Source: a virus | Lineage: Duplodnaviria > Heunggongvirae > Uroviricota > Caudoviricetes | Length of the DNA: 8,026 bases | Reading direction: 5' to 3' (one strand) | Virus record (IMG/VR): IMGVR_UViG_2654587792_000015 | In this document: positions 1 through 8,026 of the stretch, one piece after another | Position numbering within the stretch: the stretch's first letter is position 1 | Layout of the letters: every line of letters starts with the position of its first letter | Notes under the pieces: model-generated | Told to the model about the DNA's origin: nothing | Database searches by the model: none | Seen by the model: only the letters and a program-made list of their open reading frames with translations | Position numbers and translations under genes: made by a program

Positions 1-95
1 CCGATAAACCGGGTCGGCGAACTGCTCCCCTGGCGCGTAGCACTGCCGACTGAATAACACATCCCCGTCAATACGGTTCTTGCTGCACGCTTACG

Positions 96-1571
96 TTGAT
101 CATGAATGGGCAGCATACCGAGTTTAATCGCCTTCTCGGGCTCGGTAATGAATTACTTCAGCAGCGACAGGGGCTGGTGAATGTACCGTTACGGCTACCA
201 CAGGCAACCCTGGATGATAAACAGCAGACTGCACTGAATAACAGCGAGCGCGAACTGGCTCTGTCCCGCCTGAAGGGGGAAGCCCGTGAGCGTGCCCGCT
301 TGGGTTATGCTGCGGATGATCTCGGCTTTGTGGGAGAGGCGTATCAGACAGCCAGACAGAATTATATCAATAACTCACTGGATGCCTGGCGAAATAACCA
401 GGCAAATAAACCCAAAGCGCATAAAAAGACCGAAGCGGAAAAAACAGAAGATATTTATAAACGGCTGATTAAACAGCAAAAAGAACAAATAGCACTGGCA
501 GGGCAGAATACTGAACTGGCTAAGATGAAATATCAGGTCAGTCAGGGCGAATTATCAACCCTGTCAGAAGCGCAGAAAAAAACGCTTTTGCAGAATGCAG
601 CACTCATCGACCAGAAAAAGATTCGTGAGCAGCTTGCTGCGTATGAAAGCAGCCTGGCGGACAGTAATGCCAGTACCCGGGCGTCTAACGACGCGCAGTT
701 ACTGGGATATGGTGAAGGCTCACGGATGCGTGAACGACTCCAGGAAATGTGGAGTATCCGGCATGAGTTTGAGCAGAAAAATAACGAGCTGCTGAGACAG
801 TATCAGGCCGGAGAAATTGAAGAAGCCCTGTGGAAACAGGAGAAAGAACTGAATAAAAAATATCTGGAAGAGCGTCTCAGCGATCAGCAGGATTATTATG
901 CAAAGGCCGATGCTTTACGTAATAACTGGAATGCAGGACTCCAGGAGGGGCTGACCAACTGGGCAGACAGTGCCACCGATTATGCTTCGCAGGCGGCAGA
1001 TGCTGTCGTTTCCACTATGGACGGACTGGTATCAAATATTTCCGATGCACTGGCCGGAAATGTTGTGGACTGGAGAAACTGGGGGAGTTCAATTCTCCAG
1101 GAAGTTTCAAAAATTCTGATGAATGCGGCCATTGTTAACGGACTGAAGTCACTCTCCGGTGCCGGAGGGTGGCTTGGTACGGTCGGCGGATGGATTTCGG
1201 GGGCGGTGGCAAACGCAAAAGGTGGTGTTTACACATCAGCAAATCTGAGTGCTTACAGTAACACTATTGTGGATACACCGACGTATTTTGCTTTTGCGAA
1301 AGGTGCCGGGCTGATGGGCGAGGCCGGGCCTGAAGCTATCATGCCACTGACACGGGCAGCGGACGGCTCTCTTGGGGTCAGAGCCATTGGCAATGTGAAT
1401 AGTGGCGGGGGGGTTGTTTATTCTCCCGTGTATCACATCAGCATTCAGAATCAAGGGAGCAATGGCGAGATAGATGCGCGCTCAGCCAGGGGACTGGTGG
1501 ATCTGATCGACAGCAGGGTTGTGTCAATTATGCAGTCATCGCGTCGGGATGGAGGATTGTACAGTGCCTGA
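96..1571 (+). CDS. H: Phage tail tape measure protein (lambda gpH-like), C-terminal ~490 codons only; probably a 5'-truncated remnant rather than a complete gene
   Basis: Open frame 96-1571 (TTG at 96, first ATG at 102), ending ...RRDGGLYSA then TGA at 1569-1571. The Gly-rich, hydrophobic C-terminal segment (NWNAGLQEGLTNWADSATDYASQ...ILMNAAIVNGL...) and the Q/E/K/R-rich coiled-coil-like region before it match the C-terminal architecture of lambdoid tape measure proteins, and the ORF sits immediately upstream of M-L-K-I-J. No Shine-Dalgarno motif precedes 96 or 102, and all three forward frames contain stops within nt 1-57 (frame 0 TGA 51-53, frame 1 TAA 55-57, frame 2 TAA 5-7 and TAG 38-40). 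Confidence 0.75.
   Translation: MIMNGQHTEFNRLLGLGNELLQQRQGLVNVPLRLPQATLDDKQQTALNNSERELALSRLKGEARERARLGYAADDLGFVGEAYQTARQNYINNSLDAWRNNQANKPKAHKKTEAEKTEDIYKRLIKQQKEQIALAGQNTELAKMKYQVSQGELSTLSEAQKKTLLQNAALIDQKKIREQLAAYESSLADSNASTRASNDAQLLGYGEGSRMRERLQEMWSIRHEFEQKNNELLRQYQAGEIEEALWKQEKELNKKYLEERLSDQQDYYAKADALRNNWNAGLQEGLTNWADSATDYASQAADAVVSTMDGLVSNISDALAGNVVDWRNWGSSILQEVSKILMNAAIVNGLKSLSGAGGWLGTVGGWISGAVANAKGGVYTSANLSAYSNTIVDTPTYFAFAKGAGLMGEAGPEAIMPLTRAADGSLGVRAIGNVNSGGGVVYSPVYHISIQNQGSNGEIDARSARGLVDLIDSRVVSIMQSSRRDGGLYSA
1549..1571 (+). promoter_or_regulatory. H/M translational-coupling junction: Shine-Dalgarno GGAGG plus overlapping stop and start
   Basis: GGAGG at 1551-1555, GTG 1564-1566, H stop TGA 1569-1571 (GTGCCTGA). 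Confidence 0.5.
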
Positions 1572-1905
1572 GCCTGAAGTTTTTAACTGGATCCCCCGTG
1601 AGGGGATGGAGACGACACGAAAGCCATCAGTTATTACGGTAAAGTTTGGTGACGGATATGAACAGCGACGGGCTGGTGGTCTGAATGCGGATCTGAAAAC
1701 GTTTAAACCGGTATTTCGTGTCACAGATGAATATTCCCGTGCCGCGCTGGACAGTTTTTTATCCCGTCATGCCGGGATTCGTGCTTTTTTGTGGCGTCCG
1801 CCAAAACACAACAGGACTGTCCGGGTTGTCTGCAGGGAGTGGAGCATTTCGGATAATGCCATGTATACCGATTTTAACTGTACCTTTGAAGAGGTCACTC
1901 ACTGA
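1564..1905 (+). CDS. M: Phage minor tail protein M (lambda gpM-like)
   Basis: Frame-1 ORF containing ...VKFGDGYEQRRAGGLNADLKT...FLWRPP..., which I recognise as gpM-like. Preferred start is GTG 1564, preceded by GGAGG at 1551-1555 (8-nt spacer) and overlapping the H stop (GTGCCTGA); an alternative in-frame ATG at 1549 has no Shine-Dalgarno motif. The stop TGA at 1903-1905 overlaps the L start ATG at 1905-1907. Confidence 0.85.
   Translation: MPEPEVFNWIPREGMETTRKPSVITVKFGDGYEQRRAGGLNADLKTFKPVFRVTDEYSRAALDSFLSRHAGIRAFLWRPPKHNRTVRVVCREWSISDNAMYTDFNCTFEEVTH
1672..1679 (+). other. Chi octamer 5'-GCTGGTGG-3' (RecBCD recombination hotspot motif) inside M
   Basis: Exact match GCTGGTGG at 1672-1679 on the + strand. 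A single occurrence is near chance expectation, so functional significance is uncertain. Confidence 0.4.
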
Positions 1906-2604
1906 TGCAGGATATACAGCAGGAAACACTCAATGAGTGCACTAAAACGGAGCAATCCGCGCAGCATCGTGCTCTGGGAAATCGACCTGACAGAGGTCGG
2001 CGGAGAACGTTATTTCTTCTGTAATGAGCAGAACGAAAAAGGTGAACCAGTCACCTGGCAGGGGCGACAGTATCAGCCCTATCCCATTCAGGGAAGCGGA
2101 TTTGAAATGAATGGCAAAGGCACCAGTACGCGCCCCACGCTGACGGTTTCTAACCTGTACGGTATGGTCACCGGGATGGCGGAAGACATGCAGAGTCTGG
2201 TCGGCGGAACGGTGGTCAGGCGTAAGGTTTACGCCCGTTTTCTGGATGCGGTGAACTTCGTCAACGGAAACAGTGACGCCGATCCGGAGCAGGAGGTGAT
2301 CAGCCGCTGGCGCATCGAGCAGTGCAGCGAACTGAGCGCGGTCAGTGCCTCCTTTGTACTGTCCACGCCGACGGAAACGGACGGCGCCGTTTTTCCGGGC
2401 CGCATCATGCTGGCCAACACCTGCACCTGGACCTATCGCGGTGACGAGTGCGGTTATCACGGTCCGGCGGTCGCGGATGAATATGACCAGCCGACGTCCG
2501 ATATCACGAAGGATAAATGCAGCAAATGCCTGAGCGGCTGTAAGTTCCGCAATAACGTCGGCAACTTTGGCGGCTTCCTTTCCATTAACAAACTTTCGCA
2601 GTAA
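1905..2604 (+). pseudogene. L: Phage minor tail protein L (lambda gpL-like), reading frame disrupted by an apparent 1-nt insertion near 1959-1962
   Basis: ATG 1905 (coupled to the M stop) opens frame 0: MQDIQQETLNECTKTEQSA..., which hits TAA at 2022-2024 after 39 codons. Homology continues in the +1 frame from 1963 (SIVLWEIDLTEVGGERYFFCNEQNEKGEPVTWQGRQYQPYPIQ...) to TAA at 2602-2604; the six-frame track shows only the +1 piece (1933-2604). Joining the two gives 19 + 213 = 232 aa, the length I recall for lambda gpL. Confidence 0.8.
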
Positions 2605-2609
2605 ATCCC

Positions 2610-3353
2610 ATGACACAGACAGAATCAGCGATTCTGGCGCACGCCCGGCGATGTGCGCCAGCGGAGTCGTGCGGCTTCGTGGTAAGAACGCCGGAGGGGG
2701 AAAGATATTTCCCCTGCGTGAATATCTCCGGTGAGCCGGAGGCGTATTTCCGTATGTCGCCGGAAGACTGGCTGCAGGCAGAAATGCAGGGTGAGATTGT
2801 GGCGCTGGTCCACAGCCACCCCGGTGGTCTGCCCTGGCTGAGTGAGGCCGACCGGCGGCTGCAGGTGCAGAGTGATTTGCCGTGGTGGCTGGTCTGCCGG
2901 GGGACGATTCATAAGTTCCGCTGTGTGCCGCATCTCACCGGGCGGCGCTTTGAGCACGGTGTGACGGACTGTTACACACTGTTCCGGGATGCTTATCATC
3001 TGGCGGGGATTGAGATGCCGGACTTTCATCGTGAGGATGACTGGTGGCGTAACGGCCAGAATCTCTATCTGGATAATCTGGAGGCGACGGGGCTGTATCA
3101 GGTGCCGTTGTCAGCGGCACAGCCGGGCGATGTGCTGCTGTGCTGTTTTGGTTCATCGGTGCCGAATCATGCCGCTATTTACTGCGGCGACGGCGAGCTG
3201 CTGCACCATATTCCTGAACAACTGAGCAAACGAGAGAGGTATACCGACAAATGGCAGCGACGCACACACTCCCTCTGGCGTCACCGGGCATGGCACGCAT
3301 CTGCCTTTACGGGGATTTGCAACGATTTGGCCGCCGCATCGACCTTCGTGTGA
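2610..3353 (+). CDS. K: Phage tail tip assembly protein K (lambda gpK-like), with an N-terminal MPN/JAMM-like motif and a C-terminal NlpC/P60-like region
   Basis: Uninterrupted 247-codon ORF starting 5 nt after the L stop. A JAMM-type motif H-x-H-x7-S-x2-D is present (HSHPGGLPWLSEAD, about nt 2811-2852), and candidate NlpC/P60 Cys and His lie in VTDCYTLF and PNHAAIY. The 3' end overlaps the I start by 103 nt in a different frame, as in lambda. Confidence 0.9.
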   Translation: MTQTESAILAHARRCAPAESCGFVVRTPEGERYFPCVNISGEPEAYFRMSPEDWLQAEMQGEIVALVHSHPGGLPWLSEADRRLQVQSDLPWWLVCRGTIHKFRCVPHLTGRRFEHGVTDCYTLFRDAYHLAGIEMPDFHREDDWWRNGQNLYLDNLEATGLYQVPLSAAQPGDVLLCCFGSSVPNHAAIYCGDGELLHHIPEQLSKRERYTDKWQRRTHSLWRHRAWHASAFTGICNDLAAASTFV

Positions 3354-3899
3354 AAACGGGGGCCGAAGCCATCCGGGCACTGGCCACACAGATCCCGGCG
3401 TTTCGTCAGAAACTGAACGAGGGCTGGTATCAGGTGCGCATTGCCGGGCGTGATGCAGGCGAAAACGAATTATCAGCCCGTCTTAATGAGCCGCTGAAAA
3501 ATGGTGCCGTGATCCACATCGTACCGCGTCTGGCGGGAGCAAAAAGTGGCGGTGTGTTTCAGGCGGTGCTGGGGGCGGCGCTGATTGCAGTGGCATGGTG
3601 GAACCCTGCAGGCTGGCTGGGAGCCGCGGCTGTATCGGGCATGTATGCGGCAGGGGCCAGTATGATCCTGGGCGGAGTGGCGCAGATGCTGGCACCGAAA
3701 GCCAGAACGCCCACGTACACACACAACAGATAACGGCAAACAGAACACCTATTTCTCCTCACTGGATAACATGGTTGCCCAGGGCAATGTTCTGCCTGTT
3801 CTGTACGGTGAAATGCGCGTGGGGTCACGGGTGGCTTCTCAGGAGATCAGCACGGCAGACGAAGGGGACGGTGGTCAGGTTGTGGTGATTGGTCGCTGA
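3251..3899 (+). pseudogene. I: Phage tail tip assembly protein I (lambda gpI-like), reading frame disrupted by an apparent 1-nt insertion near 3708-3713
   Basis: ATG 3251 (GAGAGAGG upstream, inside the K 3' end) opens frame 2: MAATHTLPLASPGMARICLYGDLQRFGRRIDLRVKTGAEAIRALATQ..., which terminates at TAA 3731-3733 (...KARTPTYTHNR). The conserved gpI-like C-terminus (...TTDNGKQNTYFSSLDNMVAQGNVLPVLYGEMRVGSRVASQEISTADEGDGGQVVVIGR) is in the +1 frame (frame 0) and ends at TGA 3897-3899, just before the J ribosome-binding site. The switch point is at or near the CCC run 3710-3712. Confidence 0.75.
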
Positions 3900-3917
3900 T
3901 GCAAAATGTTTTATGTG

Positions 3918-3937
3918 AAACCGCCTCAGGGCGGTTT
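3918..3937 (+). promoter_or_regulatory. Intergenic hairpin between I and J; possible weak terminator, attenuator or mRNA-stability element
   Basis: AAACCGCC (3918-3925), loop TCAG (3926-3929), GGCGGTTT (3930-3937), followed by TGTCGTTT. It lies between the I stop (3897-3899) and the J ribosome-binding site (3948-3951). Confidence 0.3.
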
Positions 3938-3959
3938 TGTCGTTTATGGAGCGTGAGGA

Positions 3960-6900
3960 ATGGGTAAAGGCAGCAGTAAGGGGCATACCCCGCGCGAAGC
4001 GAAGGACAACCTGAAGTCCACGCAGCTGCTGAGTGTGATCGATGCCATCAGCGAAGGGCCGATAGAAGGTCCGGTGGATGGATTAAAAAGCGTGCTGCTG
4101 AACAGTACGCCGGTGCTGGACACTGAGGAGAATACCAACATCTCCGGCGTCACGGTGGTGTTCCGGGCAGGTGAGCAGGAGCAGACACCGCCGGAGGGGT
4201 TTGAATCCTCCGGCTCCGAGACGGTGCTGGGTACGGAAGTGAAATATGACACGCCGATCACCCGGACCATCACGTCGGCAAACATCGACCGTCTGCGCTT
4301 TACCTTCGGTGTGCAGGCACTGGTGGAAACCACCTCAAAGGGGGACAGGAATCCGTCGGAAGTCCGCCTGCTGGTTCAGATACAGCGTAACGGTGGCTGG
4401 GTGACGGAAAAAGACATCACCATTAAGGGCAAAACCACCTCGCAGTATCTGGCCTCGGTGGTGGTGGATAACCTGCCGCCGCGCCCGTTTAATATCCGGA
4501 TGCGCAGGATGACGCCGGACAGCACCACAGACCAGCTGCAGAACAAAACGCTCTGGTCGTCATACACCGAAATCATCGATGTGAAACAGGGCTACCCGAA
4601 CACGGCACTGGTCGGCGTACAGGTGGACTCGGAGCAGTTCGGCAGCCAGCAGGTGAGCCGTAATTATCATCTGCGCGGACGCATTCTGCAGGTGCCGTCG
4701 AACTACAACCCGCAAAAACGGCACATACAGCGGTATCTGGGACGGAACGTTAAAACCGGCATACAGCAACAACCCGGCCTGGTGTCTGTGGGATATGCTG
4801 ACCCACCCGCGCTACGGCATGGGGAAACGTCTTGGTGCGGCGGATGTGGATAAATGGGCGCTGTATGTCATCGGCCAGTACTGCGACCAGTCGGTGCCGG
4901 ACGGCTTTGGCGGCACGGAGCCGCGCATCACCTGTAATGCGTACCTGACCACACAGCGCAAGGCGTGGGATGTGCTCAGTGATTTCTGCTCGGCGATGCG
5001 CTGTATGCCGGTATGGAACGGGCAGACGCTGACGTTCGTGCAGGACCGACCGTCGGATAAGGTGTGGACCTATAACCGCAGTAATGTGGTGATGCCGGAT
5101 GATGGCGCGCCGTTCCGCTACAGCTTCAGCGCCCTGAAAGACCGCCATAATGCCGTTGAGGTGAACTGGATTGACCCGAATAACGGCTGGGAGACGGCGA
5201 CAGAGCTTGTTGAAGATACGCAGGCCATTGCCCGTTACGGTCGTAACGTCACGAAGATGGATGCCTTTGGCTGTACCAGCCGGGGGCAGGCGCACCGCGC
5301 CGGGCTGTGGCTGATTAAAACAGAACTGCTGGAAACGCAGACCGTGGACTTCAGCGTGGGTGCAGAAGGGCTTCGCCATGTACCGGGCGATGTCATTGAA
5401 ATCTGTGATGATGACTATGCCGGTATCAGCACCGGCGGGCGCGTGCTGGCGGTGAACAGCCAGACCCGGACGCTGACGCTCGACCGTGAAATCACGCTGC
5501 CATCCTCCGGTACCACGCTGATAAGCCTGGTTGACGGAAGTGGCAATCCGGTCAGCGTGGAGGTTCAGTCCGTCACCGACGGCGTGAAGGTAAAAGTGAG
5601 CCGTGTTCCTGACGGTGTTGCTGAATACAGCGTGTGGGGGCTGAAGCTGCCGACGCTGCGCCAGCGCCTGTTCCGCTGCGTGAGTATCCGTGAGAACGAC
5701 GACGGCACGTATGCCATCACCGCCGTGCAGCATGTACCGGAAAAAGAAGCCATCGTGGATAACGGGGCGCACTTTGACGGCGACCAGAGCGGCACGGTGA
5801 ATGGTGTCACGCCGCCAGCGGTGCAGCACCTGACCGCAGAAGTCACCGCAGACAGTGGGGAATATCAGGTGCTGGCGCGCTGGGACACGCCGAAGGTGGT
5901 GAAGGGCGTGAGCTTCCTGCTTCGCCTGACCGTGGCAGCGGACGATGGCAGTGAGCGGCTGGTCAGCACGGCCAGGACGACGGAAACTACATACCGCTTC
6001 ACGCAACTGGCGCTGGGAAATTACAGGCTGACAGTCCGGGCGGTAAATGCGTGGGGACAGCAGGGCGATCCGGCATCGGTATCGTTCCGGATTGCCGCAC
6101 CGGCAGCACCGTCGCGGATTGAGCTGACGCCGGGCTATTTTCAGATAACCGCCACGCCGCATTTTGCGGTTTATGATCCGACGGTACAGTTTGAGTTCTG
6201 GTTCTCGGAAAAACGGATTGCTGATATCAGGCAGGTTGAAACCAGCGCGCGTTATCTTGGTACGGCGCTGTACTGGATAGCCGCCAGTATCAATATCAAA
6301 CCGGGCCATGATTATTATTTTTACGTTCGCAGTGTGAACACCGTTGGCAAATCGGCATTCGTGGAGGCTGTCGGTCGGGCGAGCGATGATGCGGAAGGTT
6401 ACCTGGATTTTTTCAAAGGAGAAATCGGGAAAACACATCTGGCCCAGGAGCTGTGGACGCAGATTGATAACGGTCAGCTTGCGCCGGACCTGGCTGAAAT
6501 CAGGACGTCCATTACGAATGTCAGCAATGAAATCACGCAGACCGTCAATAAAAAACTGGAAGACCAGAGTGCGGCAATCCAGCAGATACAGAAAGTTCAG
6601 GTTGATACAAATAATAACCTGAACAGCATGTGGGCCGTGAAACTGCAGCAGATGCAGGACGGACGCCTTTATATTGCGGGTATCGGAGCCGGTATTGAGA
6701 ATACGCCAGCAGGTATGCAGAGTCAGGTGCTTCTGGCTGCTGACCGGATTGCGATGATTAATCCTGCGAATGGCAACACAAAGCCGATGTTTGTTGGTCA
6801 GGGCGATCAGATATTCATGAACGAAGTGTTCCTGAAATACCTGACGGCTCCCACCATTACCAGCGGCGGTAATCCTCCGGCATTTTCCCTGACACCGGAC

Positions 6901-7440
6901 GGGCGGCTGACGGCGAAAAATGCCGATATCAGCGGTAACGTGAATGCGAACTCCGGGACGCTCAACAACGTCACGATTAACGAAAACTGTCGGGTTCTGG
7001 GAAAACTGTCCGCCAACCAGATTGAAGGCGATCTCGTTAAAACAGTGGGCAAAGCTTTCCCCCGGGACTCCCGTGCACCGGAGCGGTGGCCATCAGGGAC
7101 CATTACCGTCAGGGTTTATGACGATCAGCCGTTTGACCGGCAAATTGTTATTCCGGCGGTGGCATTCAGTGGCGCTAAGCATGAGAGAGAGCATACTGAT
7201 ATTTACTCCTCATGCCGTCTGATAGTGCGGAAAAACGGTGCTGAAATTTATAACCGTACCGCGCTGGATAATACGCTGATTTACAGTGGTGTTATTGATA
7301 TGCCTGCCGGTCACGGTCACATGACGCTGGAGTTTTCGGTGTCAGCATGGCTGGTAAATAACTGGTATCCCACAGCAAGTATCAGCGATTTGCTGGTTGT
7401 GGTGATGAAGAAAGCCACCGCAGGCATCAGTATCAGCTGA
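3960..7440 (+). pseudogene. J: Phage host-specificity / central tail fibre protein J (lambda gpJ-like), reading frame disrupted by an apparent 1-nt insertion at the A5 run 4714-4718
   Basis: ATG 3960 with GGAG at 3948-3951 (8-nt spacer). Frame 0 reads MGKGSSKGHTPREAKDNLKSTQLLSVIDAISEGPIEGPVDGLKSVLLNSTPVLD..., which I recognise as the gpJ N-terminus. After ...SNYNPQ (about 4715) frame 0 degenerates and stops at 4851-4853, while the gpJ-like sequence continues in the +1 frame from about 4720 ([39 protein letters not shown]...) uninterrupted to TGA 7438-7440. Removing one nucleotide in 4713-4719 yields a single ORF of about 1159 codons. Confidence 0.85.
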
Positions 7441-7458
7441 ATTTTATAACCCATATAC

Positions 7459-7483
7459 GGGCGCCAGAAATGGCGCCTTTTTT
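7459..7483 (+). terminator. Rho-independent terminator downstream of J
   Basis: Stem GGCGCC (7460-7465), loop AGAAAT (7466-7471), stem GGCGCC (7472-7477), followed directly by TTTTTT (7478-7483). It lies 19 nt after the J stop and before the lom-like ribosome-binding site. Confidence 0.65.
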
Positions 7484-7507
7484 ATTGCAGAAAAGCGAGA
7501 GGTAATT

Positions 7508-8026
7508 ATGCGTAAAGTTTGTGCAGCCATTTTGTCCGCAGCCATCTGTCTGTCCGTATCCGGTGCGCCTGCATGGGCGTCTGAACATCAGTCCACACTG
7601 AGCGCGGGGTATCTTCATGCCCGTACGAACGCTCCCGGCAGCGATAATCTGAACGGGATTAACGTGAAATACCGTTATGAGTTTACGGACGCGCTGGGGC
7701 TGATTACGTCCTTCAGTTATGCCAATGCTGAGGATGAGCAAAAAACGCACTACAGCGATACCCGCTGGCATGAAGATTCCGTGCGTAACCGCTGGTTCAG
7801 CGTGATGGCGGGGCCGTCTGTGCGCGTGAATGAATGGTTCAGCGCGTATGCGATGGTGGGTGTGGCTTACAGCCGTGTGTCGACTTTCTCCGGGGATTAT
7901 CTCCGCGTAACTGACAACAAGGGGAAAACGCACGATGTGCTGACCGGAAGTGATGACGGTCGCCACAGCAACACCTCTCTGGCGTGGGGAGCTGGCGTGC
8001 AGTTTAACCCGACCGAATCCGTGGCC
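7508..8026 (+). CDS. lom: Lom-like outer membrane protein (Ail/Lom/PagC/OmpX family), 5' part; the 3' end lies beyond the window
   Basis: ATG 7508 preceded by GAGAGG (7497-7502). The frame is open to the end of the window (173 codons): MRKVCAAILSAAICLSVSGAPAWA-SEHQ... The N-terminus is a typical signal peptide with an A-x-A cleavage site; GINVKYRYEF and the alternating aromatic/hydrophobic strands are characteristic of the Lom/Ail beta-barrel family. It occupies the position immediately downstream of J, as lom does in lambda. It is absent from the ORF track because no stop occurs within the window. Confidence 0.8.
   Translation, partial: MRKVCAAILSAAICLSVSGAPAWASEHQSTLSAGYLHARTNAPGSDNLNGINVKYRYEFTDALGLITSFSYANAEDEQKTHYSDTRWHEDSVRNRWFSVMAGPSVRVNEWFSAYAMVGVAYSRVSTFSGDYLRVTDNKGKTHDVLTGSDDGRHSNTSLAWGAGVQFNPTESVA

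What the first reader, a model, noticed from the sequence alone, without database searches (positions are those of the whole stretch)
1..1571. Tape measure gene is represented only by its C-terminal ~490 codons, with stops in all frames just upstream
Lambdoid tape measure proteins are about 850 aa (length sets tail length), but this ORF can start no earlier than nt 96. Frame 0 has TGA at 51-53, frame 1 TAA at 55-57, and frame 2 TAA at 5-7 and TAG at 38-40; no Shine-Dalgarno motif precedes the TTG or ATG at 96/102. This suggests a deletion or rearrangement breakpoint within nt 1-100 that removed the 5' part of H and possibly the upstream phage genes, or another frame disruption there. The H-like protein also appears more divergent from lambda gpH than L, K, I and J are from their lambda counterparts, hinting at mosaicism.
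Basis: partly seen in the sequence, partly recalled or inferred. Interest (0 to 1): 0.5.

Follow-up and report, generated by a model that had tools for sequence, protein, structure and literature searches.

The report
Insertion sequence splits prophage tape-measure gene
The tape measure gene looks cut off because a common E. coli insertion sequence (ISEc22) landed in the middle of it and the draft-genome contig stops inside that repeat, which is an ordinary way for a prophage to be disabled.

Summary
ORF 96-1571 encodes 491 aa and is the 3' part of a tail tape measure gene. Stops lie upstream in all three frames, and there is no Shine-Dalgarno motif.

Nt 1-94 are 100% identical to the right end of ISEc22, a 2454-bp IS66-family element. 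Nt 1-57 encode the last 18 codons of its transposase TnpC (stop TAA 55-57). The terminal inverted repeat ends ...GCACGCTTAC at nt 94.

From nt 95 the sequence is 99.9% identical to a 1075-aa HK97-type tape measure gene, entering at codon 584 in the middle of a Pfam domain. TTG 96 and ATG 102 are internal codons (Leu585, Met587), not starts.

The window is an entire draft contig (JHTM01000182.1), so it simply ends inside a multi-copy repeat.

The complementary left junction, ...CCCTGTTGATCA|GTAAGCG..., carries the same 8 bp (GTTGATCA). It exists in two ENA metagenome contigs, where intact upstream phage genes are followed by ISEc22. I could not find it in the window's own assembly, so a simple insertion there is inferred, not shown.

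Verdict: ordinary, already known kind.

The parts
1..94 (+). Right end of ISEc22, an IS66-family insertion sequence (element positions 2361-2454 of 2454). The contig starts inside the element.
   Evidence: 94/94 identical to AP012536.1 (L001 4001-4094), where the IS spans 1641-4094, 2454 bp. RefSeq annotates the same sequence as 'IS66-like element ISEc22 family transposase'.
1..57 (+). Last 18 codons and TAA stop of the IS transposase gene tnpC (PINRVGELLPWRVALPTE*).
   Evidence: The tnpC CDS in L001 ends at 4057, which is window nt 57. Translation. The full TnpC carries PF03050 and PF13817.
73..94 (+). Right terminal inverted repeat of the IS. Its reverse complement starts GTAAGCGT, as does the left end.
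   Evidence: IRL GTAAGCGTCGTCTCAGCACCGT against the reverse complement of IRR, GTAAGCGTGCAGCAAGAACCGT. The first 8 nt are identical and 15 of 22 match by my count.
95..102 (+). Target sequence GTTGATCA, the right-hand copy of the expected 8-bp target site duplication.
   Evidence: The left junction in L006 and L007 reads ...cagtccctGTTGATCA|GTAAGCG. The uninterrupted gene reads ...CAGTCCCTGTTGATCATGAATGG (L002).
95..1571 (+). 3' remnant of an HK97-type tail tape measure gene (third base of codon 584 through codon 1075, plus stop). TTG 96 and ATG 102 are internal Leu585 and Met587.
   Evidence: 99.9% identical to intact 3228-nt genes in many E. coli genomes. Pfam domains, with PF06120 entered at profile position 193.
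1549..1905 (+). Minor tail protein gene (M-like), overlapping the end of the tape measure gene.
   Evidence: PF05939, 110 bits. 40% identical to lambda M.
1905..8026 (+). Lambda-like tail tip module: L, K, I, J and a lom-like gene cut by the contig end. The mosaic boundary with the HK97-like H-M module lies near nt 1905.
   Evidence: tblastn against lambda and HK97 proteins. Called genes and Pfam families.

Best explanation
An ISEc22 insertion sequence (IS66 family, 2454 bp) transposed into codons 584-586 of the 1075-codon tape measure gene. The gene belongs to an HK97-head/lambda-tip mosaic prophage of E. coli, and the IS lies in the same orientation as the gene.

The window is a whole short-read draft contig. 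It begins 94 nt inside the right end of this multi-copy IS, which is where the assembler broke. The stops 'in all frames' are the end of tnpC and its out-of-frame codons. The apparent TTG/ATG start is a pair of internal tape measure codons.

The split gene cannot make a full-length tape measure protein, so the prophage cannot build tails and is defective. This last step is inferred from the established requirement for tape measure protein in siphovirus tail assembly.

Shown: the identity of both sides of the junction, its exact position, and the existence of the complementary left junction with the same 8 bp in other assemblies.

Inferred, at about 70%: that in this particular genome the 5' half of the gene and the upstream phage genes still sit on the other side of the IS. 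The confidence given (0.9) is for the core claim, an ISEc22 right end abutting a tape measure remnant at a contig edge.
For: - Nt 1-94 are 100% identical to the ISEc22 right end, and nt 95-1600 are 99.9% identical to intact tape measure genes.
- The tnpC stop falls at window nt 55-57.
- Full copies of the element have tnpA, tnpB and tnpC with PF01527, PF05717 and PF03050. They have GTAAGCGT termini and 8-bp duplications at three other sites: TCTGAATC, ATTTCATC and GGTGAATG.
- The window equals the whole contig JHTM01000182.1, 8026 bp. A second assembly (JHRS01000262.1) has the same junction.
- The IS end occurs in 2466 of 5426 complete genomes, at a median of 2 and up to 12 places per genome. 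That explains the contig break.
- I predicted the left-junction product as tape measure residues 1-586 plus SKRRLSTVWQILKFLRE read from the IS left end. It exists exactly in the collection as P0121.
- P0121 is encoded on ENA contigs L006 and L007. L006 carries terminase, portal, capsid, tail chaperones, the tape measure 5' half and then ISEc22 tnpA, tnpB and tnpC. Its junction reads GTTGATCA|GTAAGCG.
- Two complete genomes show ISEc22 sitting in tape measure genes with both halves retained. Strain 219 has it in the same gene, 81 bp downstream and in the same orientation. GPEC657 has it in a lambda-type tape measure gene.
- PF06120 is entered at profile position 193 of 295, so the truncation is mid-domain.
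Against: - The left junction was found only in other samples (ENA metagenomes), not in the window's own assembly.
- Fourteen predicted N-terminal-fragment alleles were looked up. Only one is on record, and not from NCBI.
- The allele on L006 is of a type whose continuation differs from the window (NNSKRELA against NNSERELA in related proteins). The ENA strains and the window strain may therefore not share one event.
- No complete genome, viral, metagenome or species-representative contig holds either junction.
Confidence: 0.9

Rival explanations
1. IS-associated deletion or rearrangement. After or during insertion, recombination between ISEc22 copies, or an adjacent deletion, removed the 5' half of the tape measure gene and possibly the upstream head and tail genes. 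Under this reading the genome holds only the distal tail module.
For: - The window's own left junction could not be found among 14 allele guesses.
- The contig carries further window-specific frameshifts in L, I and J, which would fit a decaying remnant.
- IS66 copies are known to mediate such deletions, which are recognised by non-matching 8-bp flanks (PMC6778807).
Against: - The exact complementary junction with the same 8 bp exists elsewhere, with the full upstream phage module attached.
- Both complete-genome examples of ISEc22 in tape measure genes are simple insertions.
- The failed look-ups depend on guessing an exact 603-aa sequence, so they are weak negative evidence.
Confidence: 0.22
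2. Point disruption: the tape measure gene is contiguous upstream and is broken only by an indel or nonsense mutation near nt 50-100.
For: None found.
Against: Nt 1-94 have no similarity to the tape measure gene. They are 100% ISEc22. In the intact gene the 94 nt before the breakpoint are different sequence (L002 4981-5000 against window 75-94).
Confidence: 0.01
3. A genuinely short tape measure protein of about 490 aa that starts at nt 96 or 102.
For: An open frame with TTG and ATG. A gene caller did-1571.
Against: - There is no ribosome binding site.
- The ORF begins at position 193 of 295 of a Pfam domain.
- All close homologues with complete ends are 1075 aa.
- Among the exact-sequence look-ups made, the 489-aa form was on record only on the two contigs that start in the IS.
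Confidence: 0.01
4. Assembly chimera: the first 94 nt were wrongly joined to the tape measure sequence by the assembler.
For: The joint is at a contig end and involves a repeat.
Against: - The same junction appears in a second, sequence-distinct assembly that differs by 1.6% further downstream.
- The junction sits exactly at the IS terminus.
- It has a matching left junction with the same 8 bp in two other data sets.
Confidence: 0.02

Closest known systems
ISEc22 (IS66 family) insertions in E. coli prophage tail genes, for example the tape measure gene of strain 219 (NZ_CP020514.1), the tape measure gene of GPEC657, and the J gene of Stx2a phage 1447 (AP012536.1)
   Same: Same element: 100% identity over the 94 nt visible. 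Same terminal sequence. Same kind of target, a large tail gene. In strain 219 it is the same gene and orientation, 81 bp away, with an 8-bp duplication.
   Different: This exact site (GTTGATCA, codons 584-586) is absent from 5426 complete E. coli genomes. Only the right junction is visible here.
HK97 gp16 tail length tape measure protein (NP_037710.1, 1089 aa)
   Same: Same Pfam family (PF06120) and similar full length in the intact relatives (1075 aa). 54% identity over 403 aa.
   Different: Only the C-terminal 46% is present here. The downstream M-L-K-I-J genes are not HK97-like (33-39% identity).
Lambda gpH (NP_040595.1, 853 aa)
   Same: It shares the C-terminal PF09718 Tape_meas_lam_C domain and the gene position just upstream of M-L-K-I-J.
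   Different: Only 36% identity over 104 aa, and a different length class.

Membership tests
IS66 family insertion sequence (ISEc22) | Three genes tnpA-tnpB-tnpC, with an IS66-type DDE transposase | tested here: met
   Full copies (L001) carry PF01527, PF05717, and PF03050 with PF13817. The window holds only the last 18 codons of tnpC, at 100% nucleotide identity.
IS66 family insertion sequence (ISEc22) | Imperfect terminal inverted repeats that begin GTAAGCG | tested here: met
   Window nt 87-94 read ACGCTTAC, the reverse complement of GTAAGCGT. The left end in L001, L005, L006 and L010 reads GTAAGCGTCGTC.
IS66 family insertion sequence (ISEc22) | 8-bp target site duplication flanking the element (8 bp reported for IS66: PMC6778807 citing Machida 1984) | tested here: inconclusive
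   Met for three complete copies. For this insertion the right copy GTTGATCA is in the window and the left copy is in L006 and L007, which come from other samples. Both flanks were not seen in one genome.
Phage tail tape measure protein (HK97 TLTM type) | Matches to PF06120 and PF09718 above the gathering scores | tested here: met
   75.4 bits (cut-off 24) and 54.5 bits (cut-off 23).
Phage tail tape measure protein (HK97 TLTM type) | Complete protein with the N-terminal TMP_3 domain and a full PF06120 domain | tested here: not met
   The window ORF starts at PF06120 profile position 193 and lacks PF20155. The intact homologue has TMP_3 at 83-272 and TLTM at 395-686. It is a gene fragment.
Phage tail tape measure protein (HK97 TLTM type) | Gene lies between the tail assembly chaperone genes (G/T) and the M-L-K-I-J tip genes | tested here: inconclusive
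   The downstream side is met in the window. The upstream side is not visible in the window, but is met in relatives L002, L006 and L010.
Lambda gpH orthologue | Sequence similarity along the length, comparable to that of the neighbouring tail genes | tested here: not met
   36% identity over 104 aa only, against 92-98% for L and K.

The most novel reading that the evidence does not exclude
ISEc22 may have a regional preference for tail tape measure genes, or selection may favour its insertion there. In the data seen here it hit this HK97-type gene twice, 81 bp apart and in the same orientation. It also hit a lambda-type tape measure gene, a J gene and other tail genes. The four target duplications all contain or abut a TGAA/TGAT-like core. 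If real, this would be a recurrent route of prophage domestication. The sample is four sites and was not collected without bias.
Probability: 0.1. Interest if true: 0.25.

Novelty: already known. Interest (0 to 1): 0.06.

Why it matters
It matters mainly for annotation. The 489/491-aa ORF should be labelled as a tape measure pseudogene fragment next to an ISEc22 end, not as a short tape measure protein or a deletion endpoint. The prophage should be scored as defective. It also shows that an abrupt gene truncation at the edge of a draft contig usually marks a repeat, here an IS, and not missing DNA.

Tried and rejected
- I searched for the exact right junction in 5426 complete E. coli genomes and found none covering at least 80% of nt 1-190.
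- I searched for both junctions as exact patterns in viral contigs, metagenome contigs and genome contigs and got zero hits.
- I tried to recover the window's own left-junction contig. I predicted the 603-aa N-terminal fragment from 14 tape measure alleles, and also two alternative 489-aa C-fragments. Only the P0004-type allele is on record, from ENA samples. Alleles from the closest complete genomes (L010-L014) duplicated ones already tested, so I did not spend the third look-up.
- Literature searches for the assembly accessions found nothing.
- The primary IS66-family paper (PMC95320) is not held. I cite the 8-bp duplication through PMC6778807.
- An outward promoter from the IS end that could express the remnant was not found in the consensus scan.
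- I rejected a point frameshift, a genuine short gene and an assembly chimera; see the rival explanations.

Full report
**Observation**

The sequence is as described. ORF 96-1571 on the + strand encodes 491 aa, with TTG at 96 and ATG at 102. Upstream stops close all three frames: TGA 51-53 in the ORF's own frame, TAA 55-57, and TAA 5-7 with TAG 38-40. The 20 nt before the ATG hold no Shine-Dalgarno-like purine run. No sigma-70-like site is found in nt 1-400.

The product is a tape measure fragment. It matches PF06120 (Phage_HK97_TLTM) and PF09718 (Tape_meas_lam_C) above their gathering scores. PF06120 is matched only from profile position 193 of 295, so the ORF opens in the middle of a domain.

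**What lies on each side of the break**

BLAST against phage records and 5426 complete E. coli genomes splits nt 1-1600 cleanly at nt 94/95.

Nt 95-1600 are 99.9% identical to intact 'phage tail tape measure protein' genes. One example is WP_053897428.1, 3228 nt and 1075 aa (L002 3250-6477). Window nt 95 corresponds to the third base of codon 584. TTG 96 and ATG 102 are Leu585 and Met587 of ...AYQSLLIMNGQ....

Nt 1-94 are 100% identical to the right end of an IS66-family element that RefSeq names ISEc22. In the Stx2a phage 1447 record the element is 2454 bp, and its tnpC CDS ends at the base equivalent to window nt 57. Window nt 1-57 translate to PINRVGELLPWRVALPTE*, the C-terminus of TnpC.

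The element's three genes carry the expected Pfam domains: HTH_Tnp_1, TnpB_IS66, and DDE_Tnp_IS66 with its C-terminal element. Both termini read GTAAGCGT inward. Three complete copies at other sites are flanked by 8-bp duplications: TCTGAATC, ATTTCATC and GGTGAATG. This agrees with the 8 bp reported for IS66 (PMC6778807).

The stops in every frame are therefore the real tnpC stop plus out-of-frame codons in an unrelated gene.

**Why the upstream is missing**

The exact 489-aa product is on record on only two contigs. One of them, JHTM01000182.1 of GCA_001506145.1, is 8026 bp long and is the window from first to last base. The other, JHRS01000262.1, is 8025 bp and starts 2 nt further into the IS.

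The ISEc22 end occurs in 2466 of 5426 complete genomes, at a median of 2 and up to 12 places per genome. A short-read assembler is expected to break there. That the window begins at this point reflects the assembly, not necessarily the genome.

**Is the 5' half still there?**

If this is a simple transposition, the other IS end should be preceded by tape measure codons 1-586 ending in GTTGATCA. Reading on into the IS left end would then give a 603-aa product ending ...AYQSLLISKRRLSTVWQILKFLRE*.

I built this product from several tape measure alleles and looked them up by exact sequence. One is in the collection, as P0121. It is encoded on two ENA metagenome contigs.

L006 (13,098 bp) carries HNH, terminase, portal, protease, capsid, connectors, tail tube, the chaperones G and T, the 603-aa fragment, and then ISEc22 tnpA, tnpB and the start of tnpC. 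Its junction reads ...cagtccctGTTGATCA|GTAAGCGTCGTC. The window reads ...GCACGCTTAC|GTTGATCAtgaatgg. Together these are the two halves of a textbook insertion with an 8-bp duplication.

Complete genomes give precedents. E. coli strain 219 has the same prophage type with ISEc22 in the same orientation, 81 bp further into the same gene. It has duplication GGTGAATG and both gene halves in place. GPEC657 has ISEc22 in a lambda-type tape measure gene, again with both halves.

**Limits of that inference**

- The left junction comes from other samples.
- Thirteen other allele guesses were not on record.
- Neither junction occurs in complete E. coli genomes or in the viral, metagenome or species-representative collections.

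I therefore put about 0.7 on the 5' half being present in this genome. I put about 0.2 on a later IS-mediated deletion. IS66 copies are known to cause such deletions, and non-matching 8-bp flanks would reveal one (PMC6778807).

**Mosaicism**

| Gene | Identity to lambda | Identity to HK97 |
|---|---|---|
| H | 36% over 104 aa | 54% over 403 aa |
| M | 40% | 39% |
| L | 92.5% | 33% |
| K | 98.5% | 35% |
| I | 72-91% | 36% |
| J | 80-98% | 28-35% |

The module boundary lies near nt 1905, between M and L. Intact relatives such as L002 have the same arrangement. This is ordinary lambdoid mosaicism and is unrelated to the truncation.

**Consequence**

A split tape measure gene cannot supply the full-length protein needed to nucleate and measure a siphovirus tail. 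This follows from established knowledge of lambda gpH and is inferred here. The prophage is therefore very probably defective.

**Verdict**

This is a known insertion sequence in a known gene, seen at the edge of a draft contig. The particular site is rare, but nothing about it is new in kind.

Noticed in passing
window ~1965 (L), ~3712-3716 (I), ~4720-4724 (J): There are three window-specific single-base insertions relative to the sister contig L004, the intact prophage L002 and lambda. They frameshift L (223 aa against 232), I (127 aa called) and J (split into 3960-4853 and 4795-7440). None lies in a long homopolymer. They could be real decay or consensus errors.
   Followed up: partly
window 1750-5900 against L004: The two contigs that share the IS junction are identical over nt 1-1750 and about 5900-8026. 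In between they differ at about 120 positions. In nt 2000-3000 the window's variants are mostly the lambda base (34 of 38), and that stretch is 99.4% lambda-like at 2500-3000. This suggests patchwise recombination with, or assembly blending of, a second lambda-like prophage.
   Followed up: partly
window 7508-8026: The contig also ends inside a gene at its 3' end. The gene is an Ail/Lom-family outer membrane protein gene, cut about 81 nt before its end by comparison with L011. The sister contig stops within 3 nt of the same place, which points to another repeat boundary.
   Followed up: no
L010 6179-8633 (E. coli 219); window-equivalent 176-183: An independent ISEc22 insertion sits in the same tape measure gene, 81 bp downstream and in the same orientation. 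The four target duplications seen are TCTGAATC, ATTTCATC, GGTGAATG and GTTGATCA (the last followed by TGAATG). They share a TGAA/TGAT-like core. Four sites are too few to call a preference.
   Followed up: partly
P0004, P0031, P0080 (proteins returned): Several database proteins are in-frame fusions of the tape measure N-terminal part to the C-terminal part of J. They carry PF06120 together with PF09327 and PF12421. This indicates deletions spanning M-L-K-I in other E. coli prophages of this type.
   Followed up: no
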